Shown here: one piece after another, positions 4-60,045 of the stretch
How positions within the stretch are numbered: the stretch's first letter is position 1
Layout of the letters: each line of letters opens with the position of its first letter
Translations under genes and position numbers: made by a program
Origin: Lingula anatina
Lineage: Eukaryota; Animalia; Brachiopoda
Length of the DNA stretch: 64,000 bases
Direction: 5' to 3'
NCBI GenBank assembly: GCA_051362555.1
Contig: CM120645.1
Location: 19,592,001 to 19,656,000, forward strand
Notes under the pieces: model-generated
What the model saw: only the letters and a program-made list of their open reading frames with translations
What the model was told of the DNA's origin: nothing
Databases searched by the model: none

Positions 4-3000
4 ATTCCAGATGGCCTGGGCAAGTCTGTGGGGATGTGTATTTGGAGCCACCCAGGGAACGACGTCACAGGGATAATTAGTCGTTCCGAGAAGTTGGTGA
101 GAACGTCAGAAAAGGTAATGACAAGAGTATTGCCGATGGCTCAGAGAATAAAATTGGCATAGTGACTATATATTATCTTACTGGTTTTTAATTTTATTTA
201 CTTAAATAAGGTACAAAAACTGTAACACTTTTTTGATGCGATGGGGAAGTTACTTCAATCACGCCCGTTATAGGACTTATGTTATGATAATTATCTTAAA
301 CCCCCTTTTACATTGGACGGCGTCCTTTCTACGTTCTTCGTGCGACCATGAAAACTGACATCGCTGTGGTCGTAGAAAGGAGGCACAAGTACCGTTTTGG
401 TTGCAAAATGAATTCTCTGTGATGGGCTAGTTGTCAGCACGTAAAGTTTTTTTTTACCCTAAACAGGACCGTACTAAGGAACGCAGGCTTTAGCCTGTGT
501 AGATACATTGTGAATAAAAAAATCACATTGCATGCCCCTGTAAATGTTTATTATACTGTTGACGATACTATGCACTTTCAGCTAATAGGACACGGTGAGA
601 TCTACCATTATCACACCAAGCTGCCCATCAAGGAGCCAAACACAGGGGGAAGTTTCAGATGGCATCAAGATTATGGGTGATTATGTACAATACACTGTAT
701 ATATATCCCAATCTGAATGACCAAAGGTCCTTTAATGTATATTCCTCCTGTATATCCAGTCAAGGATCAGACTTTGCATCGTCTAGATTATTCAAATAAA
801 TTCTACTACTCGTACGGGACGTACCAGATTTGAAATCCTTATTTTTTAATTTAATCTCCAAGTGAGAGAGAGAGATTGGGAGAGAGAGAGAGAGCGGGGA
901 TAGTTAAAAAACATAAAATGTAAAAAATACAACAATTCAATCTTATTTTAATTTAAACAGGTACTGGTATCAGAACGGAAACCTATTTCCAGACCATCTT
1001 AATACTGTGTATATTGCTTACGATAAGAATGACCGCGAGAATGGCTGCATGCAGGTGAGAGGACATTTCGCCCAATCTCGTGTAATTTCATTTTTCAAGT
1101 TCCGAAAAATATGCTGACTTGATTTGTCTCGGGGTCATTATATAGATTTGATAGGTTCTACTGTGTTTTGCAACAACAACAACAAAAAAACAAAACAAAC
1201 AAAAAACAGTGTGTTAGCGATATTAGTAATGATGACTTTATTCACAATTCATTGAGTAGGGCCTATAAACTTAACCTGTCAGATTCTTGGTACACTTTGA
1301 TATTTTTCACCTTATATCTATTGTGTCATGAGGTAATGCTATTGGTATTTTTAAGGAAAATAGTTCGTATTTTTTAACGACACGTTCGCTTCTTGAAACA
1401 TACCGCTGCTCCGAGCTGTGGGAGTGGAGGAGAAAAAGACCTATGTACATGTACCTGTGTATAATTATCATGTAGGTCCCTTTTTCAATTCACTAGTGTT
1501 TCCTCAATCATTAAAACAGGTTATTTGGACTTTACAGATACTGGTTGCTATGCTACCAAACCACTATTTCGCTCCAAATTTTCAAAAATTTCTCGGGAGA
1601 GTTCACCCAAACCACCACCCCCCCTCCCCGACCCTCCCACCCACCCATCCTTGAGTAGGATAGGTCTTTAAAAGAGAGGAATTAAAATTTCACAAAATTT
1701 ATTTATCTTTTCTGTTATCAAGTTATCAAAACAATTTACAACATAGTAATTATCAAATTATACGTAGGCCTACATGATTATGTGATTTATAAAAAATGGC
1801 ACTTATTCTCTGCACATACAAAAGAAACGTGGTTTTTATCACTAAATTCTATTTAAATGTTTAGAAAATTAGCTTCAATTTTTTGTCTTGGTGAAACTGT
1901 AAGGAAAACTTGAATTAGCATAATTCACTTCTTGATTTTTTTTCAAAATTTATTAAAACTGATGTTTATAGCAGATATTAAATTAATCGTTCTGAGCTGT
2001 TGCAGGCTAGAGTTAAAAAGTCGTCTATATATATTAATAAAGTGGATAGTTTGTTTCATGGAGTCGGCTGTAGAATGGGCTACTTCTAAATGAATCGTGA
2101 AACTTGAGGGAAGTATTGTAGCAGCCGGTGGTTTACAGCAGTCCTCTAGCCATTGTCAACAATATTGCGGACGCTGCTGTTTGCTGTCAGAGGACCCATC
2201 TCAAGCTGTTCTTCCTCCAACACTTCCTATTATGACGAAAAACGCTGCATATAATTAGTCTGTAAACTATACATATATCTATATATTTCAAGCATTGGAT
2301 GTTTACAGAAAAATAAATTCCATCTTTTTTCATTAGATATATTTAGGTTAAAGAGTCGTTAACTTATACATATACAAAGAAGGTTCACAATAAGGAACCA
2401 GCGAGTAATTACTTTATTAGAAACGGTCAGTGTAATAAATCAAGGCTTTACCTGAGCAATGTCTAAAATGGGAGAGGTGACCACATCGGTTGGGAAATTA
2501 TTAACGTAGTAGTCACAGAGCCAACTGCATTAAAAAAAAATGAATATAAAATTATAATAGATATATAGACAAATGAATATAGTGAATGGATGAAAAAAAA
2601 TAGATTAAATACAAAAAATAATAATAAATAAATAAATAAATAAATTTCAGATCTGGCTTAAAAAGTTGTTAGCTATAAGGAGTCTTGCAGTAAGAAAAAC
2701 ATTGATGAAATTCGTACCGATGACTTAAAAGGCCAGTCATGCTGTCAATTCTTTGGTCCACTTCGCTGAAATGAAAAAGAGAGAAACGGTTCGATTTTTG
2801 CTGAAAGTTCAATATGAGACTAAGCAGGGACAATGGAAACTGAAGACAAATGATGTCTACGAGGTTAACATGACTTATTTTGAAAAGTGCACTTATGTAC
2901 TTTTGTGTCTTTAGACAGGCAAATGCTTACGAAGCTAGTGATAGAATTGTTCACGACATTTCATTAAATTATTCATGTAGTTGTATGTCATGACATAGTA

Positions 3001-6000
3001 TTGCCTACCATACTAATCTGTCAATCAGATCCCTGAAGACATGCTCTGTATCTGTGTAGATGATGGTACCTTGGAGGATTTTCAGTCTGGCTTCTGCTCT
3101 GGTCGGCAGTTCAGTCCAAAGTGGGTGTCTAAATAAATCGACCAAAATTTATTGCTGTCTTCCAACACTTCCTACTGTTCTAAAATTCTTAGGTATTTTT
3201 TAGAAAAAATTACTGGCTACATTTTAATTTTCCAGTTCATACCACTAGCAACTCTAAAGAAGGGAGCCGTGTCATTTTGGCTTATATTTCTATCAGAACT
3301 ATTGGCATGAATAACAGTTCTGTCATGATTTACATAGCTGTATCCTTTTCATTACCTTCCCTCCATAAGTTCAAACAACATGACACCCAATGCGTAGAAA
3401 TCGGCTCTCCACGAGGCGGCGCCACCCCTCAGCACCTCTGGTGTCATGTTTTTATAGAGTGTGAAGTTCATAAATTGCACCGCATGGATACTCTCTCCGG
3501 CATCATTTAGAGGGTGAACAGATCCTAGATCACACTGAAAGAAAATAATCCGCATTTAAAATTTGAATAAAAAGGGAATGTGGTTGCCAAAATGAAAGTG
3601 TTGATTACATCCAAAATTTTTTTTTCAAAACAAAACCATATTTTTATCAGTCATAAAATGTATTAATTCAAATTATGACACATCGGTGACACATGAATAA
3701 TCATTTTATGTACGTAAAGAAGCGAGTCTTAGCGAAGAGCGAGACGGTATTCAGGCCCGACCCAGAAACATCAAGGCGAGAAGAGAAAAATAACCTGAAA
3801 AAATCGAACATCTTACCAGTTTAGGGACCCCGTGTAGACTAACCAACACGTTGTTCGTTTTTAAATCAAAATGGGCTACATTCCGTTGGTGCAAGTGCCC
3901 AATAGCCATACAGACGCACGTGGCAATATATTTCACCATCTGAACAGGAACTTCGTCCCTAAGAAATAAATAAATGCAACTGTCAGTATTATATTCAGGT
4001 CAATATTAAAGGAAATAATATTTTGTTGAATAACAAATTTACTGTGAAATAGATATTTTTTATGATCGTACAAGATAAAATCGGAAAAAAATGAAAGTAT
4101 TATTTAAAGAAAAGAAAGTAATATAATTACTTACAGGAAAGTTTCCCAATACTCTTGGAGAATTTCAAGGTCCATCGGACACAATTCCGATAGTAGAACG
4201 GGAAACCCAGGCCTAACATCAAATGAGTGAACGAGTCTGGAACGGAAATTTCTCATATCAGAATGAGTTAAACTAAATCGGGTGGAAGAAATAATTTCAA
4301 TCTGTACATAGTAATTTCTCATTGTATGATAAATAATTGGACATGCGTGTTTCATAGGCATCCAAGCTTACAAATTAACCAACATATTTAATTGTTTGTA
4401 TTCATCTGATAAAATACCTTAAGATAAATTTGCTGTCTATCCTCTTCATAAAAGAAACTTCCTTGTAGATGGACCTTGCATAGGCCTCAGAGGTAGGCAC
4501 CTTCAGTGCTAGGTTGTTTTTAAACTTAACATAAAATATTTCGAACGGTTACTGGGATGTCACTTTCGTAAACAATAATAGCAAAGATAAACTGGTAACA
4601 TTACTACAGGATTAATCACAGTAAACATACATGTATATTGTTCTGCTGCTACTGCTTTAAAATCTTAAACTACAATTACTGTCATGACTGTGTTCTTATG
4701 CTACTACTATTGCTACTCCCTCTATCCCAGTATCACTTTAGTTTATCATGATAAGTTCAATACCTTGTACACTGAACCGAATCCTCCACCTCCCAAAATC
4801 GGAAGCATCGTGTCTTCCTTCCAAAAAAGCGCCCGAACCTTAAACAATGAAGAAAGGGAAAATGATAAAAAATGTACCTAATATTGAAATAGAGACTTTA
4901 ATAAAACGGCCCGATTACTTTGAAAACTAAGCTTTAAAGACGCTCATTTTGATTAATAAGAAACAAAGTTATAAATATCTGTGCGGGGTGAAGTACAGCT
5001 ATATTGATACCAACAGTTCAGTTTTTGATTTTTGTTCTGCTAAAAAGAAATATCTTACCTCGTTTTCGAGTCTGAATATTTCTCTGTGAAAAATATACAT
5101 GTAACTGTATTTCATGCCTAAAAAGGCCAAATGCGACGCAACTATCATCGCGTATATCGTCTATTTTACTCAAAAGAAAATCGCTGTATTCACTTTGCTT
5201 GCGCGCAGCATATCTCCAATAGCTTTTGTGCTACCTGGTAACGTCAGCACGGGCCAATGACGTCACAATATGTTTTACCTTTTAAGGATATATATCTATC
5301 ACGAGAAATACGCATGCGCCTTAAATGGGAAATGGGCGTTTTTTCATGCTAAAATTTATAAGGTTGAAAGTAGGCCTATATTGTTACTGCCCAAAGCAGC
5401 AAATGATTTTGATAAACGCAATATTCTATACCGACTTGTAACTTGCTTACAGGTGAAATACGCCTTCGATTTGAAGAAACATTGAAATTCTCTGTTTAAG
5501 GTAGATCGGTCGTTACATGTTCCAACGTTCGAATTTTTTTATTTTTTATTTTTTTTTTGTTTGAAGAGACACCCAAGTACATTAAAAATTTGCAAAAAAA
5601 ATTGGGGGTCACCGACCAAATAAGAGAACTAGCCCCAAATATGATACACCCTGCATATCGCACTAGTCCCCATTCAAATCAATGGGAAAATGGGTGTTTT
5701 CTCACTAAAGCATTTTTTTTATGACTTTCTGACGTTCGAATTTTTTTTAAATTTTTTTTTGTGTAAAGTGGCCTCCAAGTACATTTAAATTTTACCAAAA
5801 AAATTGGGGGTCACCGACCAAATAAGGGAACTACGCCAAGTTGAAGTGCGCTACACCCTGCGTGACGCACTAGTCCCCATTCAAATCAATGGGGAAATGA
5901 GTGTTTTTCACCAAAACGTTATTTTTTATGATTTTTCTAACGTTTGAATTTAAAAAAAAAAACTTTTTTGTGTAAAGAGGCATCCAAGTAGATTTTAATT

Positions 6001-9000
6001 TTGCCAAAAAAGTTGGGGGTCACCGACCAAATAAGAGAACTACGCCAAGTTGAAGTGCGTTACACCCTGCGTGACGCACTAGTCGGAAGTCCCCATTCAT
6101 ATCATTGGGAAAATGGGTGTTTTTCACTAAATCGTTATTTTTTATGTTTTTTTTGTTTTTTTTTTTTTTTTTTTTTTTTTTAGTGTGTGTGTGTGAAGAG
6201 ACATCTAAGTACATTTAAAACTTTCATTATGTTTAACAGTTGAAGTGAGTATACTCAGCTATTTTCAGATTTGTCAAACTGATGAGAAGGTGTTTACAAG
6301 CCATTAACTTTACAACAAAATTATTGAAGAGAATAATAAGGGAAATGCTCATGCATATGAAAATAGTTTATTGCCGTTGTTATTTATTAATGAATATAAC
6401 ATGAACGTGACATCGTAAACACTGTGTTGTCAAGTAAAATGAAGCGTCTGATACAAAGTATCAAATGCGGCATTCACGTGCTTGCTTGCGGTGCGTTCAG
6501 TACACTTTGTTTACACTGACAAGTCAAGGTCAGAAGTGCACAATTTTTCTGTATAATATAACGCAGTTTCAATTTTGATTAGTGACTTTTCTTCAAGCTG
6601 TAGACCCTATGGTCATTTTCTGAGCATTTGTATAAGCTACGAAATATTTCTCAGTCCAAATTTCTCTAAGTCCAAATGAGTGGCGTTACGACGCACTTCC
6701 GGTTTTCGTCGAAATCTAAACAACAGCAGCACATTCAGGGCGTTTTACCTCAAAATGTACGCAGCCGCTTTGATTGGAATTTACAACACTTATTCTTTAC
6801 ATGACATAGCACCTACGTGCATAATTTGTGAGCTTTAGCTGTCATACATTTTCTAGTGCCAATTCAAATTGGAAAAGGAGCTATTCCGACGATTTCTGTT
6901 GAAGGGCAAGTCTATGAACGTGCTACAGTTGTCGTATGGAATCATAGTCGACAAACGTTGTCGAAAATCTGTATCGATCATACAGAGTTACAGACAAGTT
7001 GATAATGTGTGTTTATCTTATAGATAATTGTTTTATTTCCTAAAATTAATAAAACAGACTGAAGTGTCGTTAGAGACGATTGACGATGCGCTGAAATTGC
7101 GCAAATCGTCAAATTACGTAACGACCGATCTACCTTAAAAGAAAAAAAAAAACATGGGGTTTTTGTTTAAACGGTGCTTTGGTAGGCTTATCATTTTTTA
7201 TTATTTTAATAGACCTAAATGAAAGGGGTCAGGCTAAATATAAACACGTTTGACTTAAAAGTCAATATAGATCAGCAAGATTTGAAATTAATTATGTCGT
7301 GTATATTGAAAAAGAATATCCGAAAGTGTCGAGAATACGGCTACAGAGTGATAGAAGGAGAGTTTATTTTTGCGGGAAATAATGACATGACGTGAATTTC
7401 AAATAATAAAAAGTGCAACTTGACCATTAGGTCTAGATTCTCTGTGAAACACTCTCTGTTGGCTACGGTGCAGTAGGCTTTCATAAGTCAATTAGTCAAT
7501 TGAAGGTTTTTTTTAACAGGGGCCATTTTTACTACCTTGATATCAAATTGAGAATAAGTTATGCAAATCATCAATGTTTAATAAAGTTTTCAAAATTTAT
7601 TAGGGCCTATAGGCCTATTCCGTGAACAATGCTGGCTACTCGACAAATTAGTCATATAGATAATTGTGTTCATTTACAACTAGAAGATATCTTAAAAGCT
7701 CATAAAACAAAGAATTGTAAAAGCCATGAAAAATAAGAATAGCAATGGTTCAACGTAGACCTACATTGTACATTAATTTTATAGATTCCTTGACAATTAT
7801 ATTTTAAGTACAGAAATTTTGGAAAGTATTGCAACCGATTACAGAACGACAAGCAGATCAGCTCCTTTATTTACTGTAGAAACTGCATACACGTCTGTTT
7901 TAATCACTGTCGCGAAAATCGACCGAAGAATGCCACGAAAAAGATATGGCGAGGGGAATTTATAAAACGGTGACAACTCATAGCCAAAATAAGGATGACG
8001 TCCTGACGACCATTCATTATGGAAATTTTCATGCTTTTATCAGCTGTTGCACAATTGTTAGATTTAGCCGCCTGACTAATCTGTCATCGTTTCCCCACTT
8101 ACTTGTAAGTACCGACATTAAGACATAGCAACCAATGCGTTCTAGTTGTGAAGTGAGACCCTTGCGGGTTCTCATGAGCCTTTTTAACCTACCAGGTTTT
8201 CTAATTCTGATTCTGCTGGATACGAATTTTTGTTGGCGCCCCCTATAGCTGATCAACCTACCAGCTTTTCCAATTCTGCTAGACTATGTTTTGTTCTTCC
8301 TAACCATTTGTTCTACTACACTGTAGGTTCTGGTGGGTTCCCACAAGGCCGGACGCCAGAATCATCACAGAGTTGGGGGCCAGAACGGCATTGATGAAGA
8401 ACGAATCGAGCACCTGGCCAAAATTTGTCCATTGAAGTACGTGGAGTTAGAGCCTGGTAAGGGTGTCCTAATCTGAGGACAAATTTATTCACATTATTCA
8501 CACCCACCCACCCACAAACACACACACACACGCACACACACACACGCACACACACACACACACACACGCGCGCGCATGCACACGCGTACATTATGTCAAA
8601 ATCGGTCGGAAAAGAATCAGTTGCAATACTCAAACAGTACTTAAGTGCCAACTACATGTACCTTGTTTATTTCGGTCTTAAAACTAATGTAATTGTCTTG
8701 ACTTTTTTCTTATTTTACATACATCGTCTATTTGCTCACTTTAACTGTACATGTACTGCTTGTGTATTAATTGTTCGTAAAACCTTTTTAACACAATGTT
8801 GCATGGTCGGTTTTACGCATTCAGGTATCTGTCAAGAGACCAGGTTTGACAGACATAATAAAGCCCTTTTATTGAAGTAGTTAAAATTTAAAAACAAACA
8901 TTTATTTCATTTTTGTTTCTTTTGGGAATAAATAGATGCATGTTTTTGGAGCTTTTGGGTATAGCCTTGAATTAGGATGCAGGTCGTCTATTGGGTAACT

Positions 9001-9761
9001 AAGTGAAATGCTGTTGTTTGAGAAATAAATGAGGAACCATAGTCACTTCTCTTACTTATGTAGGTGATGCTTTGATCTTCAACGCCAACTTGATCCATAA
9101 GAGCGACGCCAACAACAGTAACAAGCGGCGGTGGTCGTTCCTCGTTTCTTACAACACCAAGGAAAACAACCCGGTGTACGTTCATCATCATGCCCAGTAT
9201 ACGCCTTTAGATGTGGTACGTCAAGATATTCTGGTCTTTTTTATTTTTAATAAAAATAACCTGGAAAGATTTTGGATAGTTCACGAATATCAAATCTATT
9301 TCATGCTCGCAGTTCGCAAAAGCACTGTTCATTCATTTTAAAATTAAAATTTTTATTGAATTCAAATGAATCCGAATACGCAAGATAACTTTACCGTTTG
9401 TACATTCATGAGGACGGGTAGCAAAGTTACAGGTGTGGATTTGAGGGTTGCACCTGTTTAACTGCTAATTCAAATTAACAAAAAAAAACTTTTATGGTAA
9501 GAATTCAATTGTTCTTAGAGAGGCAAAACGTATTTTTACGTCAGAAAGAGGCAATGGCTCTTTGACACTCCATGACTGACTCGTGATTGACAAACCTTTT
9601 TAACTAACATCATTTCTATGTTGTAGGTTCCTAATTCCGCCATTAAAGCCTGCGCCAACTTCACAGACATGACGGGGAAGGAATTTCTGGACCCGTCCAT
9701 TGACAAGACTGTCATCGCAGATAAAACTAACCCTGTGAAATTACCGAAGACTAGCGACTAA
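4..9761 (+). CDS. PhyH-family Fe(II)/2OG dioxygenase (L-proline trans-4-hydroxylase/ectoine hydroxylase-like), 5'-partial; exons 4-114, 582-676, 961-1054, 8327-8456, 9064-9215, 9627-9761
   Basis: Hand-spliced with GT-AG sites and consistent phases into 238 aa: [23 protein letters not shown]...[33 protein letters not shown]...[15 protein letters not shown]...[30 protein letters not shown]...KTSD*. Contains the HxD...H iron triad (HQD, LIH) and the 2OG-binding Arg of the PhyH fold. The N-terminus lies upstream of the window. Confidence 0.9.
863..893. repeat. (GA)n microsatellite in dioxygenase intron
   Basis: Interrupted gagaga tract seen directly. Confidence 0.8.
2146..5148 (-). CDS. Ser/Thr protein kinase, non-RD (copy 1), about 338 aa, nested antisense in the dioxygenase intron; exons 5148-5059, 4838-4764, 4524-4418, 4236-4135, 3958-3817, 3534-3356, 3128-3009, 2765-2718, 2524-2452, 2226-2146
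   Basis: All ten exons join in phase with GT-AG. Motifs: [11 protein letters not shown] (Gly loop), LALK (beta3 Lys), YKE (alphaC Glu), HFDLKTNN (catalytic loop), CDLG (DFG equivalent), MTPE (APE), ADFYALG (subdomain IX), DQR...HRWL (XI). The first exon and start codon are the least certain part. Confidence 0.88.
5238..5319 (-). promoter_or_regulatory. Putative kinase promoter: perfect CRE TGACGTCA (5258-5265), a CRE half-site, CCAAT and an NRF1-like CGCATGCGC
   Basis: Motif cluster about 90-170 bp upstream of the predicted ATG. The CRE is retained in the five copies whose upstream region is in the window. Motif match only. Confidence 0.4.
5500..7134. mobile_element. Non-autonomous Kolobok-like DNA transposon (1635 bp) with about three ~205-bp internal tandem repeats (5525-6220)
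   Basis: TTAA on both sides (5496-5499, 7135-7138) and a perfect 17-bp TIR GGTAGATCGGTCGTTAC. The empty site gtttaaaagaaa is present in the other units. GG...CC ends with a TTAA TSD fit Kolobok rather than piggyBac (CC...GG). Confidence 0.85.
8499..8588. repeat. (CA)n/(CG)n compound microsatellite after the dioxygenase GSHKAG exon, length-variable in each unit (also about 27415, 41881, 51173, 59090)
   Basis: Seen directly in all five cassettes. Confidence 0.85.
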
Positions 9762-9942
9762 GACCCCATTTCCAGAGATGGGGGTTAACGCTAAATAGCT
9801 GTCAGCCGGGCGGACACGAAAGTTAATTACCCCCTTACAGCTTGTAGTAGGTGGGACGGACATTTAAGCCGGATAATCTGACAGTAATCTAGTGAGACTC
9901 CCCGCGGGGATAGATCGATTTAAAAGCTTTGGGAATACAGCC
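9762..9942. mobile_element. 181-bp MITE-like insertion (PIF/Harbinger-type) at the dioxygenase TAA stop codon
   Basis: TAA at 9759-9761 is duplicated at 9943-9945; the insertion is absent from the other four cassettes (gaataatcctttga). The TIR is imperfect (about 10/16) with G...C ends. Confidence 0.65.
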
Positions 9943-12101: not shown

Positions 12102-12563
12102 TGTAAGATTTGCTGTGTTTGTTGTGTTAGCTAGGATTGTGTTCGGTGTGAATCGTGTATGTTCGTATGTGTACGTGGAGGTCAAGGGTTGAAAGACCGC
12201 GCCCCATAAAATTTGATTTCCACCTGAGAGTCGGACGGAGATGCAGGTTGAATAACTGAAATAGGTATTCCAGTGAGCTTGCAGGTAAGTTTAACTATAT
12301 TTAATAAAGGACCAATCCATAGTTTAAATTCACACATTTCTAAATTTATATATTTATTTTTATGGTGTTTTTGGCATTGTTATATTTGTATTTCTTTGCT
12401 CTGTCTTTCTTGTCTTTCGTCAGTGTAAATTTTGTTAATGTAATTGTTTAAAATTAATTTGTTTATATTAATCTTGCAGATATTTGGAGATATTTGGAGA
12501 TATTTGCAGATATTTGTACAATAACAATAAAGAAACATCAACCCGAGCTATCGGTCTGTTACA
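12102..12563 (+). repeat. 5' LTR (462 bp)
   Basis: TGTAAGATTTG...CTGTTACA; only one substitution seen relative to the 3' LTR. Confidence 0.96.
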
Positions 12564-12565
12564 TT

Positions 12566-12583
12566 TGGCGCCCGAACAGGGAC
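12566..12583 (+). promoter_or_regulatory. Primer-binding site complementary to tRNA-Lys3(UUU)
   Basis: TGGCGCCCGAACAGGGAC, 2 nt after the LTR, is the known 18-nt tRNA-Lys3 PBS. Confidence 0.92.
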
Positions 12584-41878: not shown

Positions 41879-41913
<35 letters not shown>

Positions 41914-48200: not shown

Positions 48201-50274
48201 TGTCAACGGATAACTGCCCTACAGAAAAGTTGCACTTAAAATTTTGCAAACAAATCCTTGGCCTCCATCAAAATGTATCAAACTATGGTGTATACACTGA
48301 ACTTGGCCGCCTTCCCCTCTATACCAAAATACAGTTTGCATCTGTCCAACTATGGTGTAAAATTATTCAAATGTCTGATGCTACACTAATGAAACAAGCA
48401 TACATACAAGAGATAAATAGTTACAAGTTGCTGACACCTTATGTCCCACCCGCAGTCCACACACTCAGGCCAGCTTGTATGTCATGGTCTGAGGGTATCC
48501 GAAAAATCCTTTTCACATTTGGCCTTGGAGATGTGTGGCTTAGCCAGTCCCCTCCAAAAAACTTCACCACAATTTTCAAACAAAGACAAACTGACCACTT
48601 TACCCAAATGTGCAATAGCAAACTTCAAGCCAACAGTAAATTGTCTCTCTTCCGTATACTTAACCAAAAGTGTGAAAGGGCAACTTATGTTGATAAAATA
48701 ACAAATTATGACACCTTGTCAACCCTTGCTAAACTACGTCTTAGTGACCATAAACTCCACATCGAAACTGGGCGGCACACCAGGCCAAAAACTGAAAGGT
48801 GCGACAGAATCTGTCGCCTGTGCACCCAAGGGGTACTTGAAGATGAATACCATTTTATATTCCAATGCCCAATGTACAAAACAGACAGAGTCACCTTTTT
48901 AAGTAAAACCTCAATCCTAAAAGCTGATCCCAGGTCACCAGACAGTCATTTATGCCATGTATTTAACAGTGCCAAAAAAGATACTCTAGTGTCCCTCTCC
49001 AACTTTATAATCAAATCATTCAAGAAAAGAAGTGAAGTAGTTGCTCTGCTTGGTAACTCTTAGCATATCCCTTAAAATGTCAGTGTATGGTCCCACTGTT
49101 GTGAGAAGTGACTCGGCAGTGGGACTGAACATGGCACAATATTTATATCTGTGTAACTTATTTACTTATCTGTCTTATGTAATTGTCATTAGTCGTAATT
49201 ATCCATGTCATCAAACTGGCTTTAAACAGCTATGTAACCTTGGTTTAAGTTTAAACATATTCTTTTTGTGTAACATGTTTATAGTATGTTTATGGTAAAT
49301 TTAAAATCACACCAAGGTTTATCGCATTGCTTAGATAGAATATTTTATGAGTAATTTTGCTGATACGTATGTCCATTATATAAAGATGGTAATGCACTAA
49401 CTGTATTGTATCGTCATTAGTATATCATATTGTACAAGGTCATGACAATCTATGCACCAGTACAGAAATAAATTGAATTGAATTGAAATTGAATTAACCA
49501 ACATATTCAATTGTTTGTATTCATCTGATAAAATACCTTAAGATAAATTTGCTGTCTATCCTCTTCATAAAAGAAACTTCCCTGTAGATGGACCTTGCAT
49601 AGGCCTCAGAGGTAGGCACCTTCAGTGCTAGGTTGTTTTTAAACTAAATATAAAATATTTCGAACGGTTACTGGGATGTCACATCCGTAAACAATAATAG
49701 CAAAGATAAACTGGTAACATTACTACATAACTTAATATAACATAAATATATTTTGTTCTGCTGCTACTACTTTCAAATCTAATACTATAATTACTGTCAT
49801 GACTGTGTGTACTTATGCTACTACTACTATTGCTACTCCCTCTATCCCAGTATCACTTTAGTTTGTTTTATCATGATAAGTTCAATACCTTGTACACTGA
49901 ACCGAATCCTCCACCTCCCAAAATCGGAAGCATCGTGTCTTCCTTCCAAAAAAGCGCCCGAACCTTAAACAATGAAGATAGGGAAATTGATAAAAAGTGT
50001 ACCTAATATTGAAATAGATACTTAAATAAAACGGCCCGATTACTTTCAAAACTAAGCTTTAAAGACGCTCATTTTGATTAATAAGAAACTAAGTTATAAA
50101 TATCTGTGCGGGGGTGAAGTACAGATATATTGATACCAACAGTTGAGTTTTTGATTTTTGTCCTGCTAAAAAGAAATATCTTACCTCGTTCTCGAGTCTG
50201 AATATTTCTCTGTGAAAAATGTACATGTAACTGTATTTCATGCCTAAAAAGGCTAAATGCGACGCAACTATCAT
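45206..50274 (-). CDS. Non-RD kinase, copy 4 (exons intact; LINE in intron 3)
   Basis: All exons and motifs are present; a 1.85-kb LINE lies between the LALK and LVHSF exons. Confidence 0.83.
47642..49491 (+). mobile_element. 5'-truncated non-LTR retrotransposon (RTE-X/L2-group-like): 3' half of RT + CCHC domain, (ATTGA)n tail
   Basis: GVKQGDTLSPFLF, LLYADD, YLGL, IETGRH...CRLC...EDEYHFIFQC; stop at 49063; tail AATAAATTGAATTGAATTGAAATTG. AATTA on both flanks; the empty site caaattaaccaac is present in the other units. The clade assignment is an inference. Confidence 0.9.
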
Positions 50275-51000
50275 TGCGTATCGTCTATTTTACTCAAAAG
50301 AAAATCGCTGTATTCACTTTGCTTGCGCGCAGCATATCTCCAATAGCTTTTGTGCTACCTGGTAACGTCAGCACGGGCAAATGACGTCACAATATGTTTT
50401 ACCTTTTAAGGATATATATCTATCACGTGAAATACGCATGCGCCTTAAATGGGAAATGGGCGTTTTTTCATGATAAAATTTATAAGGTTGAAAGTAGGCC
50501 TATATTGTTACTGCCCAAAGCAGCAAATGATTTTGATAAACGCAATATTCTATACCGACTTGTAACTTGCTTTCAGGTGAAATACGCCTTCGATTTGAAG
50601 AAACGTTGAAATTCTCTGTTTAAAAGAAAAAAAAAACATGGGGTTTTTGTTTAACGGTGCTTTGGTAGGCTTATCTTTTTTTTAATAGGCTTAAATGAAA
50701 GGGGTTAGGCTAAATATAAACACGTTTGACATAAAAGTCAATATAGATCACAAGATATGAAATTAATCATGTCGTGTATATTGAAAGTGTGGAGAATACG
50801 GCTCCAGAGTGGTAGGCCTAGAAGGAAAGTTTACTTTTGCGAGAAATAATGACATGGTGTAGGCCTAAATTTCAAATAATAAAAAGTGCAACATGACCAT
50901 TAGATCTAGTTTCTTTGTGAAACGCTCTCTGTTGGCTACGTTGCAGTAGGCTTTCATAAGTCAACTAGTTCTTTCTAAGCATTTGTTCTACTACCTTTAG

Positions 51001-51204
51001 GTTCTGGTGGGTTCCCACAAGGCCGGACGCCAGAATCATCACAGAGTTGGGGGCCAGAACGGCATTGATGAAGAACGAATCGAGCACCTGGCCAAAGTTT
51101 GCCCGTTGAAGTACGTGGAGTTAGAGCCTGGTAAGGGTGTCCTTATCTAAACACAAATAAATTCACCTTATTCACACCCACCCACCCACAAACACACACA
51201 CACA

Positions 51205-51244
<40 letters not shown>

Positions 51245-52491
51245 TGCACACGCGTAGATTATGTCAAAATCGGTCGGAAACGATTCAGTTGGAATATTCA
51301 AACAGTACTTAGGTGCCAACTACCTCGTTTATTTCGGTCTTAAAACTAATGTATTTGTCTTGACTTTTTTTTTCTTTTTTACATACATCGCCTATTTGGT
51401 CACTTAAACTGAACATGTGCTACATGTACGTACTTGTGTATAAATTGCTCGTAAAACCTTTATAGAACAATGTCGCATGGTCGATTTTACGCATTCGGGT
51501 ATCTGTCAGGTATCTAGGTTTGACCACCCTGAGCTTCAGAGATAACTTGGGTTTGACAGACATAATAAAGCCTTTTTATTGAAGTAGTTGAAATTTTAAA
51601 TCAAACATATATTTCATTTTTGTTTCTTTTTGGAATAAATACATGTATATTTTTTGGAGCTTTTGGGGATAGCTTTGAATTAAAATGCTGGTCATCTATT
51701 GGGTAACTAAGTGAAATGTTGTTGTTTGAGAAATAAATGAGGAACCATAGTCATTTCCCTTACTTATATAGGAGATGCTTTGATTTTCCACGCCAACTTG
51801 ATCCATAAGAGCGACGCCAACAACAGTAACAAGCGGCGGTGGTCGTTCCTTGTTTCTTACAACACCAAGGAAAACAACCCGGTGTACGTTCATCATCATG
51901 CCCAGTACACGCCCTTAGATGTGGTACGTCAAGATATTCTGGTCTTTTTTATTTTTAATAAAAATAACCTGGAAAGATTTTGGATAGTTCACGATTATCA
52001 AACCTATTTCATATTCACAGTTCGCAAACACGCTGCTCAATCCTCAATTTTTATTGAATTCAGATAGAATCTGAATATGCAAGAATAAATTTAATTTATC
52101 GTTTGTTCATTAATATTACAAATTCCGTCATTAGGAGAGTTACATGTGTTACCACCAGTTTAATTGCTAATTCAAATCAGATAATACCAGAGTACTCCAA
52201 CAGCATCATTTATGGTAAGAATTCAATTATTTTCAGAGAGGCAAAACGTGTTTTCACGTAGGAAATAGCCCTTTTACACTTCGTCTAATAGCGTTGATCA
52301 CATGACTGACTCGTGATTGACAATCCTTTTTAACTAACATCATTTCTATGTTGTAGGTTCCCAATTCCGCCATTAAAACCTGCACCAACTTCACAGACAT
52401 GACGGGGAAGGAATTTCTGGACCCGTCCATTGACAAGACTGTCATCGCCGATAAAACTAACCCTGTGAAATTACCAAAGACTAGCGAATAA
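51001..52491 (+). CDS. Dioxygenase 3' cassette 4 (exons 51001-51130, 51772-51923, 52357-52491)
   Basis: Intact frame and splice sites; variants IFHAN, KTCTN. Confidence 0.7.
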
Positions 52492-54584
52492 TCCTTTGAA
52501 GTGAAGGAAAACCAAAATCAAAGCGAAGTTAATTTTTTAAAAAACATTTGACTAGAATTATATGCCAGAATCATGAGCATAGGCAGCTACTTTTAAAGAG
52601 AGCAAGAAGGGTTCAAAATAACGAGGGCGACAAAAAATATTTGCTTGAAATTCAATATCGGTTGACTTAATGTTTTAATGATTTATTTTAATTTTTAACA
52701 TATAGCTTAAAGAGTTGATAGGCGCAGTGTCCTTCAGACAATGGAAGAAATATCTGCCAGGTGTTGAGCCAGAGACCCATTGTATTACTGGGGAGATTTC
52801 CAGGCATATTTCTTAACTATTTTAATATTTCGGTGGTTTTCACTCATCTTTACGTTGACATAATAGCTGATTGATTTTAAAACTTGGAAGCGGATTCAGA
52901 ATGCTTAAATAAAGTGTGAAAATGCTTTTCTGTGTACTTTTGCTTACAGCGATAAGAAAACGTGGAAAAGGGGTGCTCTAGTGGCGTTGAAGCCGTCCCT
53001 GTGTACAGTAGCAGATGATTCCACAATTTTGTTTGATTTTTTAGGTGCTTAAGATATCCAAGTTGGTGGAAATAAGTTTTAAACAGGTGACTGCAACATC
53101 ATTTTATTTTAACTAGGCTTTATTTTAACAAGGCAGCAAAGCTGTCAAATGTACAGACAAAAAACAGAATAAAAAGATGCAAAATAGGTCATTTTGTCAA
53201 TTTTGATGCAATAATAAATAACGCTTATAATAGTCAGTCAACACTGATTTTTAATCATGCGCAACAGGTAACATGGTCAATAACAGGAGCAGATGCAGAG
53301 ATATTTTCTGACAGTATTCCAAAGTATCTTTGTTGATCCATCCTCCATTTTGATGGTCTTCCAATAGAAACCCGTTAATATAAACTTTAAAATCTGACTG
53401 TCTTCCAGGAGACCCAGAAGATGGTCTCAACCCACCCCTTCAATAAGATTACAGTTTTAGGACCATGAGAGTTAAATTCACATGATGAAAGTCCCAATAT
53501 ATGAAAAATGATGACAGTGCATAAAATAATATTACAGCGTGTTTAAAGACATAAATACCAATACAACTGCTTATGTGGAAATACTGAAAATGTGCAGAGC
53601 CTCAGGTGGATGGGAGTTAAAAGTCACATCTTAAAAATGCCAGTGTTGGAGAAAAAATTAAAAAGAAAACAACAAAAATATAATCCCAATGAAGCTGCTA
53701 TTCACTGCTTCCTTATTATGGACACTTTGTTATCTAGCAGAGAGCTTAACCTTTGGGAGTTTACAGGGAAATATCAACAAGTGTGCTTTATTAAATCTCA
53801 TTTAATGGCCAATTAATTAGGCGAATGAGTTTATAGCACTGAACTTAGCCCAGTGAATACCCAAGGGGAATTTACATGTACCTGTGTATAATTATCATGT
53901 AGGTCCCTTTTTCAATTCACTAGTGTTTCCTCAATCATTAACACAGGTTATTTGGACTTATGAGATACTGAATTTTCCTTGGTTGATATGCTACCAAATC
54001 ACTATTTCGCTCCAATGTTTCAAAAATTTCTCGGGAGAGTTCACCCAAACCACCAACCCCCCCTCCCCGACCCTCCCACCCACCCATCCTTTAGTAGGAT
54101 AGGTCTTTAAAAGAGAGGAATTAAAATTTCAAAAAATTTATTTATCTTTTCTGTTATCAAGTTATCGAAACAATTTACAACATAGTAATTATCAAATTAT
54201 ACGTAGGCCTACATGATTATGTGATTTATAAAAATTGGCACTTATTCTCTGCACATACAAAAGAAACGTGGTTTTTATCACTAAATTCTATTTAAATGTT
54301 TAAATAATTAGCTTCAATTTTTTGTCTTGGTGAAACTGTAAGGAAAACTTGAATTAGCATAATTCACTTCTTGATTTTTTTTCAAAATTTATTAAAACTG
54401 ATGTTTTTAGCAGATATTAAATTAATCGTTCTGAGCTGTTTTAGGCTAGAGTTAAAAAGTCGTCTATATATAATAATAAAGTGGATAGTTTGTTTCATGG
54501 GGTCGGCTGTAGAATGAGCTACTTCTAAATGAATCGTGAAACTTGAGGGAAGTATTGTAGCAGCCGGTGGTTTACAGCAGTCCT

Positions 54585-57500
54585 CTAGCCATTGTCAACA
54601 ATATTGCGGACGCTGCTGTTTGCTGTCAGTGGACCCATCTCGAGCTGTTCTTCCTCCAACACTTCCTATCATGATGAAAAACACTGCATATAAATAGTCT
54701 GTAAACTAAACATATATCTCAATATTTCAAGCATTGGATGTTTACAGAAAATAAATTCCATCTTTTTTCATTAGATTCATGTAGGTTAGAGAGTCGTTAA
54801 CTTATACATGTACAAATTGCTTGAAGTTCGAGACGGTTCACAATAAGGAGCCAGAGAGTAATTACCCTATTAGAAGCAATCAGTGTAATAAATCCAGGCG
54901 TTACCTGAGCAATGTCTAAAATGGGAGAAGTGATCACATCGGTTGGAAAATTATTCACGTAGTAGTCACACAGCCATCTGCATTCAAAAAAATGAATATA
55001 AAATTATAATAGATATATAGACAAATAAATATAGTGAATGGATGAAGAAAATAGATTAAATACAAAAATAATAATAAATAAAAAATATAAATAAATAAAT
55101 GTCAGATCTGGCTTAAAAAGTTGTTAGTTATAGGGAGTCTTGCAGGAAGAAAAAAACATTGATGAAATTCGTACCGATGACTTAAAAGGCCAGTCATGCT
55201 GTCAATTCTTTGGTCCACTTCGCTGAAATAAAACAGAGAGAGATGGTTTGATCTGTGCTGAAAGTTCAATATGAGACTAAGCAGGGACAATGGAAACTGA
55301 AGACAAATGATGTCTACGAAGTTAACATGACTTATTTTGAAAAGTGCATTGTGTACTTTTGTGTCTTTAGACAGGCAAATGCTTACGAAGCTAGTGAAGG
55401 AATTGTTCACGATATTTCATTTAATTATTCACTGCACATATTCATGTAGTTGTATGTCATGAAGTAGCATTGCCTACCATACTAATCTATCAATCAGATC
55501 CCTGAAGACATGTTCTGTATCTGTGTAGATGATGGTGCCTTGGAGGATTTTCATTCTGGCTTCTGCTCTGGTCGGCAATTCAGTCCAAAGTGGGTGTCTA
55601 AATAAATCGACTAAAATTATTGCTGTCTTCCAACACTTCCTACTGTTCTAAAATTCTAAGGTATTTTTTAGAAAAAAATTACTGGCTACATTCTAATTTT
55701 CCAGTTCATACCACTAGCAACTCTAAAGAAGGGAGCCGTGTCATTTTGGCTTATATTTCTATCAGAACTATTGGCATGAATAACAGTTCTGTCATGATTT
55801 ACATAGCTGTATCCTTTTCATTACCTTCCCTCCATAAGTTCAAACAACATGACACCCAATGCGTAGAAATCGGCTCTCCACGAGGCGGCGCCACCCCTCA
55901 GCACCTCTGGTGTCATGTTTTTATAGAGTGTGAAGTTCATGAATTGCACCGCATCGATACTCTCTCCGGCATCATTTAGAGGGTGAACAGATCCTAGATC
56001 ACACTGAAAGAAAATAATCCGCATTAGAAATTTGAATAAAAAGGGAATGTGGTTGCCAAAATGAAAGTGTTGATTACATCCAAAAATTTTTTTTTTCAAA
56101 CAAAACCATATTTTTATCAGTCATAAAAATGTACTAATTCAAATTATGACACATCGGTGACACATGAATAATCATTTTATGTACGTAAAGAAGCGAGTCT
56201 TAGCGAAGAGCGAGACGGTATTCAAAATCAGGCCCGACCCAGGAACATCAAGGCGAGAAGAGAAAAATAACCTGAATTTATTTACTCAGATAGACAATCT
56301 GAGCCACAAAAAATCGAACATCTTACCAGTTTAGGGACCCCGTGTAGACTAACCAACACGTTGTTCGTTTTTAAATCAAAATGGGCTACATTCCGTTGGT
56401 GCAAGTGCCCAATAGCCATACAAACGCACGTGGCAATATATTTCACCATCTGAAGAGGAACTTCGTCCCTAAGAAATAAATAAAAGCAACTGTCAGTATG
56501 ATATTCAGGTCAATATTAAAGGAAATAATATTTTGTTGAATAACGAATTTCCTATGAAATAGATATTTTTATGATCGAACAAGATAAAATCTGGAAAAAA
56601 AATTAAAGTATTATTTAAAGAAAAGAAAGTAATTACTTACAAGAAAGTTTCCCAATACTCTTGGAGAATTTCAAGGTCCATCGGACACAATTCCGATAGT
56701 AGAACGGGAAACCCAGGCCTAACATCAAATGAGTGAACGAGTCTGGAACGGAAATTTCTCATATCAGAATGAGTTAAACTAAATCGGATGAAAGAAATAA
56801 GTTCAATCTGTAGGCCTACAGCGTAATTTTTCATTATAATCATAAAAATTGAAATTTTACAGTCACAGTTTATGACGTTTATATCCATCCAGTATGTACT
56901 AGTACTCATTAAATTTAACATAATGATGTTGTGCAAGATGTTGATTATTGTATGTGTCAAACATCTAACGAGGTAAAGAGATTATTACTTGGTGATGCAT
57001 AAAGGACATGCGTGTTTCATAGGTATCCAAGCTTACAAATTAACCAACATATTAAATTGTTTGTATGCATCTGATAAAATACCTTAAGATAAATTTGCTG
57101 TCTATCCTCTTCATAAAAGAAACTTCTCTGTAAATGGACCTTGCATAGGCCTCAGAGGTAGGCACCTTCAATGCTAGGTTGTTTTTAAACTAAATATAAA
57201 ATATTTCGAACGGTTACAGGGATGTCACATCCGTAAACAATAATAGCAAAGATAAACTGGTAACATTACTACATAACTTAATATAACATAAATATATTTT
57301 GTTCTGCTGCTACTACTTTCAAATCTAATACTGTAATTACTGCCATAACTGTGTGTACTTATGCTACTAACTACTATTGTTACTCCCGCTATCCCAGTAT
57401 CCCTTTATTTTGTTTGTCATGATAAGTTCAATACCTTGTACACTGAACCGAACCCTCCACCTCCCAAAATCGGAAGCATCGTGTCTTTCTTCCAGAAAAG

Positions 57501-57827
57501 GGCCCGAACCTTAAATTCACATTGAAGAAAGGAAAATTGATAAAAAGTGTAATTGAAATAGATACTTAAATAAAACGGCACGATTACTTTGAAAACTAAG
57601 CTTTAAAGACGCTCATTTTGATTAATAAGAAACAAAGTTATAAATATCTTTGTGGGGGTGAAGTATGACTACAGATATATTGATACCAACAGTTGAGTTT
57701 TTCATTTTTGTTCTGCTGCTAAAAAGAAATATCTTACCTCGTTCTCGAGTCTGAATATTTCTCTGTGAAAAATGTACATGTAACTGTATTTCATGCCTAA
57801 AAAGGCCAAATGCGACGCAACTATCAT
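54585..57827 (-). CDS. Non-RD kinase, copy 5 (apparently intact)
   Basis: Same exon structure; variants VPLQM, WKKDT, SIDAV; a ~30-bp intronic insertion near 56277. Confidence 0.83.
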
Positions 57828-58475
57828 CGCGTATATCGTCTATTTTACTCAAAAGAAAATCGCTGTATTCACTTCGCTTGCGCGCAGCATATCTCCAATA
57901 GCTTTTGTGCTGCCTGGTAACGTCAGCACGGGCCATTGACGTCACAATATGTTTTGCTTTTTAAGGATATAGCAATCACGTGAAATATGCATGCGCCCTA
58001 AATGGGAAATGGGCGTTTTTTCATGCTAACAGTTATAGATCTAAGGTTGAAAGTAGGCCTATATTGTTACTGCCCAAAGCAACAAATGATAAACGCAATA
58101 CTCTATATCGATTTGTAACTTGCTTACGCCTTCGATTTGAAGAAACGTTGAAATTCTTTGTTTTAAAAGAAAAAAAGATGGGGTTTCGCTGAGCTGTTTA
58201 GCGGTGCTTTGGTAGGCTTATCTTTTTTTTTTAATAGGCCTAAATGAAAGGGGTTAGGCTAAATATAAACACGTTTGACTTAAAAGTCAGTAGGCTATAG
58301 ATTAGCAAGATATGAAATTAATTATGTTGTGTGTATTGAAAAAGAAAATGGATATCAGAAAGCGCCGAGAATACGGCCCAGAGTGGTACAAGGAAAGTTT
58401 ATTTTTGCGGGAAATAATGACATTATGTAGGCCTAAATTTCAAATAATAAAAAGTGCAACATGACCATTAGATCT

Positions 58476-58531
<56 letters not shown>

Positions 58532-58926
58532 TGAAACGCTCTGTTGGCTACGGTGCAGTAGGCTTTCATATGTCAACTAGTCATTTTTAAAGCAGGGGCC
58601 ATTTTTACTACCTTGATATCTAATTGGGAATTCGTTATGCAAATCATCACTGTTTAATGATGTTTTTAAAATTTATTAAGGGCCTATATTCCGTGAATAA
58701 TGCTGGCTACTCGACAAATTAGTCATATAGATAATCGTGTTCATTTACAACTAGAAGTTAACTCAATAGTTCATAAAACAATGAATAGTAAAATCCATGA
58801 AAAATAAAAATAGCAAGGCATCAACATTCTTGTCGCCTCCCCCTATAGCTGATCAACCTAACAGCTTTTCCAATTCTGCTAGATTCTGTTTTGTTCTTTC
58901 TAAGCATTTGTTCTACTACACTGTAG

Positions 58927-60045
58927 GTTCTGGTGGGTTCCCACAAGGCCGGTCGCCAGAATCATCACAGAGTTGGGGGCCAGAACGGCATTGATGAAGA
59001 ACGAATCGAGCACCTGGCCAAAGTTTGTCCATTGAAGTACGTGGAGCTCGAGCCTGGTAAGGGTGTCCTAATCTGAGCACAAATTTATTCACACAAACAC
59101 ACGCGCGCACACGTGCGAGTAGATTATGTCAAAATCGGTCGAAATCAATTCAGTTGCAATACTCAATACTTAAGTGCCAACTACCTCGTTTATTTCGGTC
59201 TTAACATTAATGTAATTGTCTTGACTTTTTTTTCTTATTTTATATACATCGCCTATTCGGTCACTTTCACTGTACATGTAAGTACATGTAAGTGAAATGC
59301 TGATGTTTGAGAAATAAATGAGGAACCATAGTTATTTCCCTTACTTATATAGGAGATGCTTTGATCTTCAACGCCAACTTGATCCATAAGAGCGACGCCA
59401 ACAACAGTAACAAGCGGCGGTGGTCGTTCCTCGTTTCGTACAACACCAAGGAAAACAACCCGGTGTACGTTCATCATCATGCCCAGTATACGCCTTTAGA
59501 TGTGGTACGTCAAGATATAACCTGGAAATATTTTGGATAGTTCACGAATATCAAACCTATTTCATATTCACAGTTCGCAATAACACTGTTTATTCATTAA
59601 TTTTCATTGAATTCAGATAGAATCTGAATATGCAAGAATGAATTTAATTTATCGTTTGTACATTAATTTTACAAATTCCGCCATTTAGGAGAGTTAGATG
59701 TGTTACCACCAGTTTAATTGCTAATTCAAATCAGATAATACCAGAGTACTCTAACAGCATCATTTATAGTAAGAATTCAATTATTTTCAGAGAGGCAAAA
59801 CGTGTTTTCACGTAGGAAATAGCCCTTTTACACTCCGTCTAATAGCGTTGATCACATGACTGACTCGTGATTGACAAACCTTTTTAACTAACATCATTTC
59901 TATGTTGTAGGTTCCTAATTCCGCCATTAAAGCCTGCGCCAACTTCACAGACATGACGGGGAAGGAATTTCTGGACCCGTCCATTGACAAGACTGTCATC
60001 GCCGATAAAACTAACCCTGTGAAAATATCAAAGACTAGCGAATAA
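58927..60045 (+). CDS. Dioxygenase 3' cassette 5 (exons 58927-59056, 59353-59504, 59911-60045)
   Basis: Intact frame and splice sites despite shorter, more diverged introns. Confidence 0.7.

What the first reader, a model, noticed from the sequence alone, without database searches (positions are those of the whole stretch)
4..60045. One dioxygenase 5' half followed by five intact, in-phase alternative 3' cassettes showing signs of purifying selection
Seen: the duplication breakpoint (1446) lies inside the phase-0 intron after ...ENGCMQ, so units 2-5 carry only the last three exons. Every orphan cassette still has GT-AG sites, a phase-0 start, the distal His and 2OG Arg, and a stop at the same codon. 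In the first cassette exon I counted about 8 synonymous variants (gtg/gta, gcc/gca, gga/ggt, cgc/cgg, ggc/ggt, tgt/tgc, cca/ccg, tta/cta/ctc) against one I/V change, while the introns carry many indels. Known: the HxD half of the active site lies in the shared exons and the H...R half in the cassettes. Inference: the shared 5' exons may splice to any cassette, giving a constant N-half with variable C-halves (N/H in IFxAN, different C-tails). This would be a reversed protocadherin/UGT1-like architecture for an enzyme.
Basis: partly seen in the sequence, partly recalled or inferred. Interest (0 to 1): 0.85.

Follow-up and report, generated by a model that had tools for sequence, protein, structure and literature searches.

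The report
Young tandem array of gene tails
In a lamp shell (Lingula), the last three exons of an iron-dependent enzyme gene are copied at least five times in a row with intact reading frames, but the array is likely young and its copies likely inherited their signs of selection from working alleles, so they are probably spare tails rather than selected splice alternatives.

Summary
The anatomy is real. One 5' half of a Lingula PhyH-family dioxygenase gene is followed by five intact three-exon 3' cassettes; a sixth unit runs off the window. The purifying signature is also real: 13 nonsynonymous against 19 synonymous variants, p = 8e-6.

It probably does not show selection on the orphan cassettes. 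Units 3-6 differ by about 0.5% beside their shared junction, while introns near the exons differ by up to 13% in recombining blocks. The exon haplotypes thus look older than the array. Six of 11 'cassette-specific' residues, including the N/H site, occur in 5'-complete Lingula gene models. Intactness is expected at this age.

RNA could not test the idea: five runs gave 18 exon 4-5 joints, but no exon 3-4 joint was listed for any cassette.

The proposed layout is known: Drosophila pip and CG42235 (PMC6191721). This scan has noted similar layouts on other DNA, including another Lingula gene (unchecked notes).

Verdict: likely a young partial-gene tandem array refreshed by recombination (0.62). 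Selected alternative splicing is not excluded (0.15).

The parts
1..113 (+). 5' exon 'E1', cut by the window start; single copy in the window
   Evidence: protein matches P0004
581..676 (+). Exon E2, with the HxD metal motif (WHQD); single copy
   Evidence: weak Pfam PhyH hit E 0.003, below the cut-off; H 114/115 and D 115/115 in homologues
961..1054 (+). Exon E3, last unshared exon; phase-0 donor after 1054
1446..1447 (.). Left breakpoint of the repeat unit, inside intron 3; TA is shared with the repeat that forms the other side of every junction
   Evidence: other copies of that repeat continue differently after the equivalent position 53874 (loose ends)
8327..9761 (+). Cassette 1: E4 8327-8456, E5 9064-9215, E6 9627-9761; AATAAA at 10361
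27242..29152 (+). Cassette 2: E4 27242-27371, E5 28404-28555, E6 29018-29152; H50, private K63 and K137
27933..28022 (+). Extra 3' part of E5 in unit 2, with its donor but no acceptor (internal duplication plus deletion)
41710..43100 (+). Cassette 3: E4 41710-41839, E5 42401-42552, E6 42966-43100; AATAAA at 43528
51001..52491 (+). Cassette 4: E4 51001-51130, E5 51772-51923, E6 52357-52491; H50, T102, T104; closest to the RNA reads seen
58927..60045 (+). Cassette 5: E4 58927-59056, E5 59353-59504, E6 59911-60045; AATAAA at 60459
22620..61431 (.). Five copies of one head-to-tail junction, with unit starts at 22620, 36771, 44494, 53873 and 61431; unit 6 runs off the window before its exons
   Evidence: the junction at 53873 is bridged by a contig of DNA run X1
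11038..22491 (.). Insertion flanked by TTAA between units 1 and 2; holds a Gypsy-type LTR retrotransposon at about 12102-19428 whose LTRs differ at 1 of 464 sites
29374..35594 (-). LINE (endonuclease plus reverse transcriptase, 1291-aa open frame; 14-nt target duplication) in the 3' UTR of unit 2, upstream of the AATAAA position seen in the other units
47645..49491 (+). Reverse-transcriptase fragment inserted in intron 3 of unit 4, about 1.5 kb before E4
5500..7138 (.). Insertion with terminal inverted repeats, private to unit 1
9762..9942 (.). About 180-nt interspersed repeat inserted right at the stop codon of cassette 1 only
   Evidence: heavily covered by repeat-derived RNA reads

Best explanation
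This is a tandem array of the 3' half (exons 4-6) of a Lingula PhyH-family Fe(II)/2-oxoglutarate dioxygenase gene; it is likely young, its exon blocks were likely brought in by recombination from alleles or near-identical complete copies, and the distal cassettes are likely unselected spares. Step 1 (junction shown, mechanism inferred): one break joined a high-copy repeat downstream of the gene to intron 3 at a 2-nt TA overlap. Step 2 (inferred): unequal crossing-over multiplied the unit to six or more copies. Step 3 (mosaic shown, donors inferred): crossovers and conversions with other haplotypes replaced the parts far from the junction, carrying in exons that had evolved under purifying selection while attached to a 5' half. 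Step 4 (inferred, untested): coding mRNA would mostly use cassette 1 and end at its poly(A) site. Leaky splicing to distal cassettes, or short non-coding RNAs starting inside a unit, may occur without being selected.
For: (1) Age gap. In the 1.4 kb after the junction, units 3-6 differ by 0.43-0.64% (6 pairs). In the 1 kb before it, units 2-5 differ by 0.2-1.0%. Before E4 and in intron 5, 15 of 20 pairs differ by 8-13%. pS in the exons is 0.03-0.15. (2) Mosaic. 130 informative sites fall into 10 split patterns, and 4262 of 8385 site pairs are incompatible. Adjacent incompatible pairs number 20 against 65.6 +/- 5.3 in shuffles; 0 of 10000 shuffles were as low. (3) Import in exon-free DNA. Unit 2 carries a roughly 1-kb intron tract with 54 differences in 980 sites from unit 3 and 35 in 965 from unit 1. 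It is bracketed by 1/196 and 0/264 differences from unit 3, so it is a third haplotype. (4) Six of the 11 residue states by which cassettes 2-5 differ from cassette 1 (V33, H50, T104, S128, I133, E138) occur in the 5'-complete public models P0002 and P0004. (5) With 0.25-0.5% branch length, the chance of no disabling hit in four cassettes is 0.20-0.59. (6) The same junction, with 1 difference in 285 nt, is in DNA run X1; conspecific DNA runs X1-X7 share only 0.38-0.51 of the words of 1-10000, roughly 2-5% site difference. (7) Only 1 of the 54 well-conserved cassette positions varies. (8) Unit 2 has near-miss lesions: a broken extra E5 and a LINE in the 3' UTR.
Against: The exon-flanking introns (8-13%) are deeper than the unit 1 versus rest distance in the far intron (3.9-5.1%) and deeper than the rough 2-5% from word sharing. 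Ordinary allelic diversity may not be enough; balancing selection or older paralogous donors may be needed. At 1% branch length, the chance of all four staying intact falls to 0.04-0.13. The RNA reads match orphan cassette 4 at 8 of 9 listed sites by majority in X13 (the ninth as a 4/11 minority), including a letter private to unit 4; this fits an allele but also fits expression of a distal cassette. P0002 and P0004 are predicted models and could be stitched across a collapsed array. The array is in at least one other DNA run, at contig depth like the repeated intron, so it is not a private accident. No donor haplotype was seen as DNA. Direction of transfer was not tested.
Confidence: 0.62

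Rival explanations
1. Selected alternative 3' cassettes. E3 splices to any E4, each cassette is polyadenylated, and selection keeps all frames intact while recombination homogenises the junction region.
For: All splice sites, phases and stops are intact, with equal polypyrimidine content. dN/dS is well below 1. AATAAA lies 414-428 nt after the stop in units 3-5. RNA letters resemble cassette 4. The layout exists in flies, and an unchecked note reports alternative last exons in another Lingula enzyme.
Against: The junction is much younger than the exon divergence. The variants are shared with 5'-complete models. The proteins are nearly identical. No E3-E4 joint was listed in any of 5 RNA runs, though 4 joint rows were hidden and coverage was too low to test. 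No docking/selector pairing beyond controls: -21.7 to -31.0 kcal/mol against -22.5 to -38.4 for 13 control stretches.
Confidence: 0.15
2. Heterogeneous duplication that fixes a balanced polymorphism. Old N50 and H50 allele classes were captured on one chromosome and are both used by splicing, giving permanent heterozygosity.
For: The one conserved position that varies is cassette residue 50 (P0004 position 208): H in 106 of 115 homologues, N in 0 of 115. Units 1/3 (N) and 2/4 (H) differ by 10.6-12.1% in intron 5. Heterogeneous duplications are selected in mosquitoes (PMC6121789, abstract read).
Against: Needs distal splicing, which is not shown. The close paralogue P0003 has Cys there, so the site may simply be relaxed in Lingula. 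Unit 5 has N50 on an intron-5 background closer to units 2/4 (4.7-4.9%). No activity data.
Confidence: 0.08
3. The orphan cassettes act as a kept reservoir of conversion donors that diversify the expressed cassette.
For: Strong block mosaicism, and units 1 and 3 are only 1.3-2.5% apart around E5.
Against: Variation is mostly synonymous, so there is little to diversify. Direction of transfer is unknown, and neutral exchange gives the same pattern.
Confidence: 0.05
4. Assembly artefact: haplotypes stacked in tandem.
For: The species looks highly polymorphic, and no long read was available to span a unit.
Against: There are more than two haplotypes and unit-specific transposon insertions, two with clear target duplications. 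The junction is bridged in DNA run X1. A public partial model, P0001, starts exactly at E4.
Confidence: 0.03

Closest known systems
Drosophila pip and CG42235 3' tandem cassette clusters (PMC6191721; abstract, introduction, section 12 and discussion read)
   Same: Shared 5' exons followed by tandem multi-exon 3' cassettes: 10 cassettes of 2-4 exons in pip, 5-7 cassettes of 6-8 exons in CG42235. [quoted passage not shown]
   Different: There, use of the cassettes is shown by junction reads and minigenes, and the RNA pairings are conserved across species. Here, cassettes differ by 1-8 residues, the junction is young and no use is shown. That pip encodes sulfotransferase-like domains is recalled; one search did not confirm it.
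Manduca sexta serpin-1 (PMC1761132, passage read)
   Same: Constant N-terminal part with alternative C-terminal ends: 12 reactive-loop variants from alternative exon 9.
   Different: A single alternative exon that changes the reactive site loop. Here the alternatives span three exons and leave the catalytic residues unchanged.
Anopheles GSTD1 alternative 3' exons (recalled; the 1998 paper was not held, and searches gave no passage on it)
   Same: An enzyme with a shared N-terminal exon and alternative C-terminal parts.
   Different: As recalled, those alternatives are far more diverged and are expressed. Not tested here.
Heterogeneous gene duplications of insecticide-resistance alleles in mosquitoes (PMC6121789, abstract read)
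   Same: Divergent alleles of one locus placed in tandem on one chromosome.
   Different: As I read the abstract, those associate alleles of a whole locus. Here only the 3' half is repeated, and the copies have no known promoter.
PhyH-family Fe(II)/2OG dioxygenases (PF05721); invertebrate 'L-proline trans-4-hydroxylase-like' proteins
   Same: 1175 relatives at E <= 1e-30. The model of P0004 (pLDDT 96) matches proline hydroxylase H11, leucine hydroxylase GriE and EctD with TM about 0.65-0.73.
   Different: Only 20-22% identity to those solved enzymes. The substrate is untested; a free amino-acid hydroxylase is an inference.

Membership tests
3' tandem alternative cassette genes (pip / CG42235 / PGRP-LC type) | Tandem duplicated 3' cassettes downstream of unshared 5' exons | tested here: met
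3' tandem alternative cassette genes (pip / CG42235 / PGRP-LC type) | Each cassette has compatible phase, splice sites, stop and a poly(A) signal | tested here: met
   in unit 2 the usual AATAAA is displaced by a LINE, though the LINE supplies other hexamers
3' tandem alternative cassette genes (pip / CG42235 / PGRP-LC type) | Transcripts join the common donor to more than one cassette | tested here: inconclusive
   5 RNA runs, 6-25% of each read: no E3-E4 joint listed, even for cassette 1; 4 joint rows hidden; RNA not known to be from the window's individual
3' tandem alternative cassette genes (pip / CG42235 / PGRP-LC type) | Cassettes diverged and kept under selection in their own right | tested here: inconclusive
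   dN/dS below 1, but the divergence appears older than the junction and is shared with 5'-complete models. The only E4+E5 difference between sister units 2 and 4 is nonsynonymous (n = 1)
3' tandem alternative cassette genes (pip / CG42235 / PGRP-LC type) | Docking-site/selector RNA pairings (present in some members only) | tested here: not met
   coarse scan of 1055-1445 against 400 nt before each E4: energies within the range of 13 controls; other docking positions not scanned
3' tandem alternative cassette genes (pip / CG42235 / PGRP-LC type) | Cassette array conserved across species | not testable with these tools
   no genome held for the window and no related animal genomes to search
Tandem partial-gene segmental duplication / copy-number array | One head-to-tail junction shared by all units | tested here: met
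   the junction is in run X1, and probably X7 (only 23 letters on the left side, below the tool's 31-letter rule)
Tandem partial-gene segmental duplication / copy-number array | Unequal exchange or conversion among units and with outside haplotypes | tested here: met
Tandem partial-gene segmental duplication / copy-number array | Copy number varies between individuals | not testable with these tools
   only assembled contigs were offered for DNA runs; their depth is not a copy number
PhyH-family Fe(II)/2OG dioxygenase | HxD...H triad and distal Arg | tested here: met
   P0004 H123, D125, H213 and R224 are conserved in 114-115 of 115 homologues; HxD is in E2, H and R are in E5 of all five cassettes. 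The roles of these residues are family knowledge
PhyH-family Fe(II)/2OG dioxygenase | Fold of the Fe/2OG dioxygenases | tested here: met
   predicted model of P0004 matches solved members, E about 1e-19
PhyH-family Fe(II)/2OG dioxygenase | Enzyme activity and substrate | not testable with these tools
   needs an assay

The most novel reading that the evidence does not exclude
A pip-like 3' cassette system caught at birth: a young array has captured ancient, balanced alleles of the enzyme's C-terminal half (N or H at a site that is His in 92% of homologues), and shared 5' exons splice to them, so one chromosome makes both allelic enzymes. This would be permanent heterozygosity achieved by splicing rather than by whole-gene duplication.
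Probability: 0.1. Interest if true: 0.7.

Novelty: new member of a known kind. Interest (0 to 1): 0.27.

Why it matters
As read here it is mainly a caution: in a highly polymorphic animal, orphan gene pieces in a young array can show dN/dS far below 1 and intact splice sites without being used, because they are copied from working alleles. Dating the junction against the exons exposes this. If distal splicing were shown, the locus would be a snapshot of how 3' cassette clusters such as pip begin, and of allelic variants being turned into splice isoforms.

Tried and rejected
No whole genome is held for the window, so sequence upstream, the end of the array and other complete copies could not be examined.

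The run search listed no RNA holder among indexed runs; this is no evidence either way. Of 9 raw RNA runs offered, 5 were laid. X15 and X18 had no reads on E4-E6 in the part read. Of 11 DNA rows, 2 were laid.

E3 had depth 0 and 0.24 in X12 and X13, against 2.1-11.4 on E4-E6. The tool warns that a dip in depth is no finding, so I do not count it for or against any model. It would fit short RNAs starting inside a unit (first Met at codon 109, so essentially non-coding), 3' bias or filtering.

The docking/selector scan found nothing beyond controls. The intron-4 distances for unit 5 (24-25%) come from misalignment across a large deletion and were dropped; unit 2 was left out of that intron because of its internal duplication. 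Columns within 5 sites of a gap were excluded (part 3).

Literature: 'Lingula' with 'phytanoyl-CoA dioxygenase' gave 0 papers, and the four-term search on partial duplication and terminal exons gave 0. PMC13121700 (passages) had no heterozygosity figure in its main text; its supplements were not read and may bear on allelic divergence. PMC9540044, PMC4195677, PMC1847502 and PMC4654499 (passages) did not describe Anopheles GSTD1 splicing. Searches were seen as listings only. No earlier scan note lay near this place.
Full report
What is there. The window holds the 3' part of a gene for a PhyH-family Fe(II)/2-oxoglutarate dioxygenase. Exon 5 is 98-100% identical in protein to records named Lingula anatina, so the animal is that brachiopod or a very close relative. 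Three exons (1-113, 581-676, 961-1054) occur once and three (E4, E5, E6) occur five times. Self-comparison shows a repeat unit that starts at 1446 in intron 3, with later units at 22620, 36771, 44494, 53873 and 61431; the sixth leaves the window before its exons. The units differ in length mainly through insertions: 11.5 kb with a Gypsy-type element between units 1 and 2, a 6.2-kb LINE in the 3' UTR of unit 2, a reverse-transcriptase fragment in unit 4, and two insertions private to unit 1. The LTRs differ at 1 of 464 sites, so that insertion is recent.

All five cassettes give 138 residues in phase with E3, with canonical splice sites and the same stop position. The HxD motif is in E2; the distal His and Arg are in E5 and do not vary. 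Pairwise pS is 0.03-0.15 and pN 0.003-0.025. Variant alleles number 19 synonymous and 13 nonsynonymous, where neutrality would give about 77% nonsynonymous (p = 8e-6). Purifying selection therefore acted on these exon sequences. The question is when and where.

Dating. Every junction is the same join of a high-copy repeat to intron 3. Next to it, units 3-6 differ by 0.43-0.64% over 1.4 kb, and units 2-5 by 0.2-1.0% over the 1 kb upstream. Near the exons, 15 of 20 unit pairs differ by 8-13%. Mean divergence among units 2-5 is 0.4-2.6% in the bins within about 2.5 kb after or 1.1 kb before a junction and 5.6-7.2% over the exon block. A contig of DNA run X1 bridges the junction with 1 difference in 285 nt; a contig of X7 has none in 217 nt but only 23 letters on the left side. 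I infer that the junction is much younger than the exon haplotypes.

Mosaicism. The tree changes along the unit: 130 informative sites show 10 splits, in blocks (20 adjacent conflicts against 65.6 +/- 5.3; 0 of 10000 shuffles as low). Unit 2 carries a purely intronic tract of about 1 kb that matches neither unit 1 nor unit 3, flanked by near-identity to unit 3. Old haplotypes therefore enter the array even where no exon can be selected. Conspecific DNA runs X1-X7 share only 38-51% of the sampled words, roughly 2-5% site difference, so divergent donors are plausible. The exon block is deeper than that, which I cannot fully explain.

Shared variants. Public models with a 5' half carry 6 of the 11 residue states that separate cassettes 2-5 from cassette 1, including H50 of IFxAN (P0002) and the S128/I133 tail (P0004). 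Neither model matches any window cassette exactly. A third model, P0001, is a partial that starts exactly at E4, so an orphan cassette exists in that annotation too. These are predictions and could be stitched across a collapsed array. If the four orphans have been neutral for 0.25-0.5% of branch length, the chance of no disabling hit is 0.20-0.59; at 1% it is 0.04-0.13; at 5% it is below 0.001. Intactness is thus unremarkable if the array is young, and would demand selection only if the cassettes had been orphans throughout their divergence.

Little to diversify. Ten positions vary, five of them in the last 11 residues; at four of those five, 99-104 of 115 homologues have no aligned residue. 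Only 1 of 54 well-conserved positions varies: residue 50, His in 106 of 115 homologues, Asn in three cassettes and Cys in the paralogue P0003. The predicted structure of P0004 is confident and closest to proline, leucine and ectoine hydroxylases at 20-22% identity. The substrate is unknown.

RNA. Five of nine raw RNA runs were laid, 6-25% of each. Spliced E4-E5 joints numbered 5, 11 and 2 in X12, X13 and X14 and 0 in X15 and X18; E5-E6 joints numbered 1, 8, 2, 0 and 0. No joint from E3 to E4 and no back-joint from one cassette's exon to an earlier exon was listed; 4 joint rows and several hundred variant rows were hidden by the tool. At the listed exon sites X13 showed at most two letters, which a single heterozygous locus can give. 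The majority letters match cassette 4 at 8 of 9 sites, including one private to it. That fits a cassette-4-like allele at position 1 (P0002 also has H50, T104, L133 and P134) or expression of a distal cassette. Two X14 reads lie in the intron just before E4. E3 was hardly covered, but the tool warns against reading dips, so the RNA does not decide.

How it most likely works. One break created the junction; unequal crossing-over amplified the unit; exchange with alleles or near-identical complete copies keeps replacing the exon block with sequence that was selected elsewhere. The junction and the mosaic are shown. The donors, the default use of cassette 1 and the neutrality of the rest are inferred. 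I give this 0.62, selected alternative splicing 0.15, a captured balanced polymorphism 0.08, a donor reservoir 0.05 and misassembly 0.03.

Comparison with what is known. [quoted passage not shown] Manduca serpin-1 has 12 alternative C-terminal exons (PMC1761132). The locus meets the anatomical features of this class, but use of several cassettes was inconclusive and a docking/selector pairing was not found, so I do not file it as a member. It is a new instance of a partial-gene tandem array. I found no paper on this locus. The lead to pip came from an earlier scan note; I read the paper but did not check that note's own claim.

Noticed in passing
window 12102-19428: Very recent Gypsy-type LTR retrotransposon (LTRs 463/464 identical). 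Its first frame has an RRM domain ahead of PNMA-like and zinc-knuckle domains; gag and pol are split over several frames.
   Followed up: partly
window 11038-12101 and 19429-22491: Host element of the LTR insertion, flanked by TTAA; contains a 53/97-nt tandem repeat at 19809-20058. Not identified.
   Followed up: no
window 29374-35594 (- strand): Apparently full-length LINE with ORF1 (276-aa frame), a 1291-aa ORF2, a poly(A) tail and a 14-nt target duplication.
   Followed up: partly
window 27933-28240: Partial copy of exon 5 with its donor and intron edge, duplicated within unit 2. It resembles the exon-edge duplications described in other scan notes on this genome.
   Followed up: partly
window 9762-9942: A small repeat inserted exactly at the stop codon of cassette 1. 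Its family is abundant in poly(A) RNA, with several hundred-fold depth in all four runs laid.
   Followed up: no
window 961-1054 versus 8327-9761: RNA covers E4-E6 but hardly E3 in X12 and X13. This could mean short transcripts starting inside a unit; the tool warns that dips are unreliable.
   Followed up: partly
window 961-1054, run X15: Twelve reads with three fixed differences on E3, probably from the paralogue P0003.
   Followed up: no
protein P0001: The public partial model has E6 twice in a row, suggesting a further internal duplication in another haplotype.
   Followed up: no
proteins P0003, P0006-P0008, P0063, P0111: Lingula has at least six further paralogues of this dioxygenase subfamily, 51-83% identical to P0004.
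   Followed up: no
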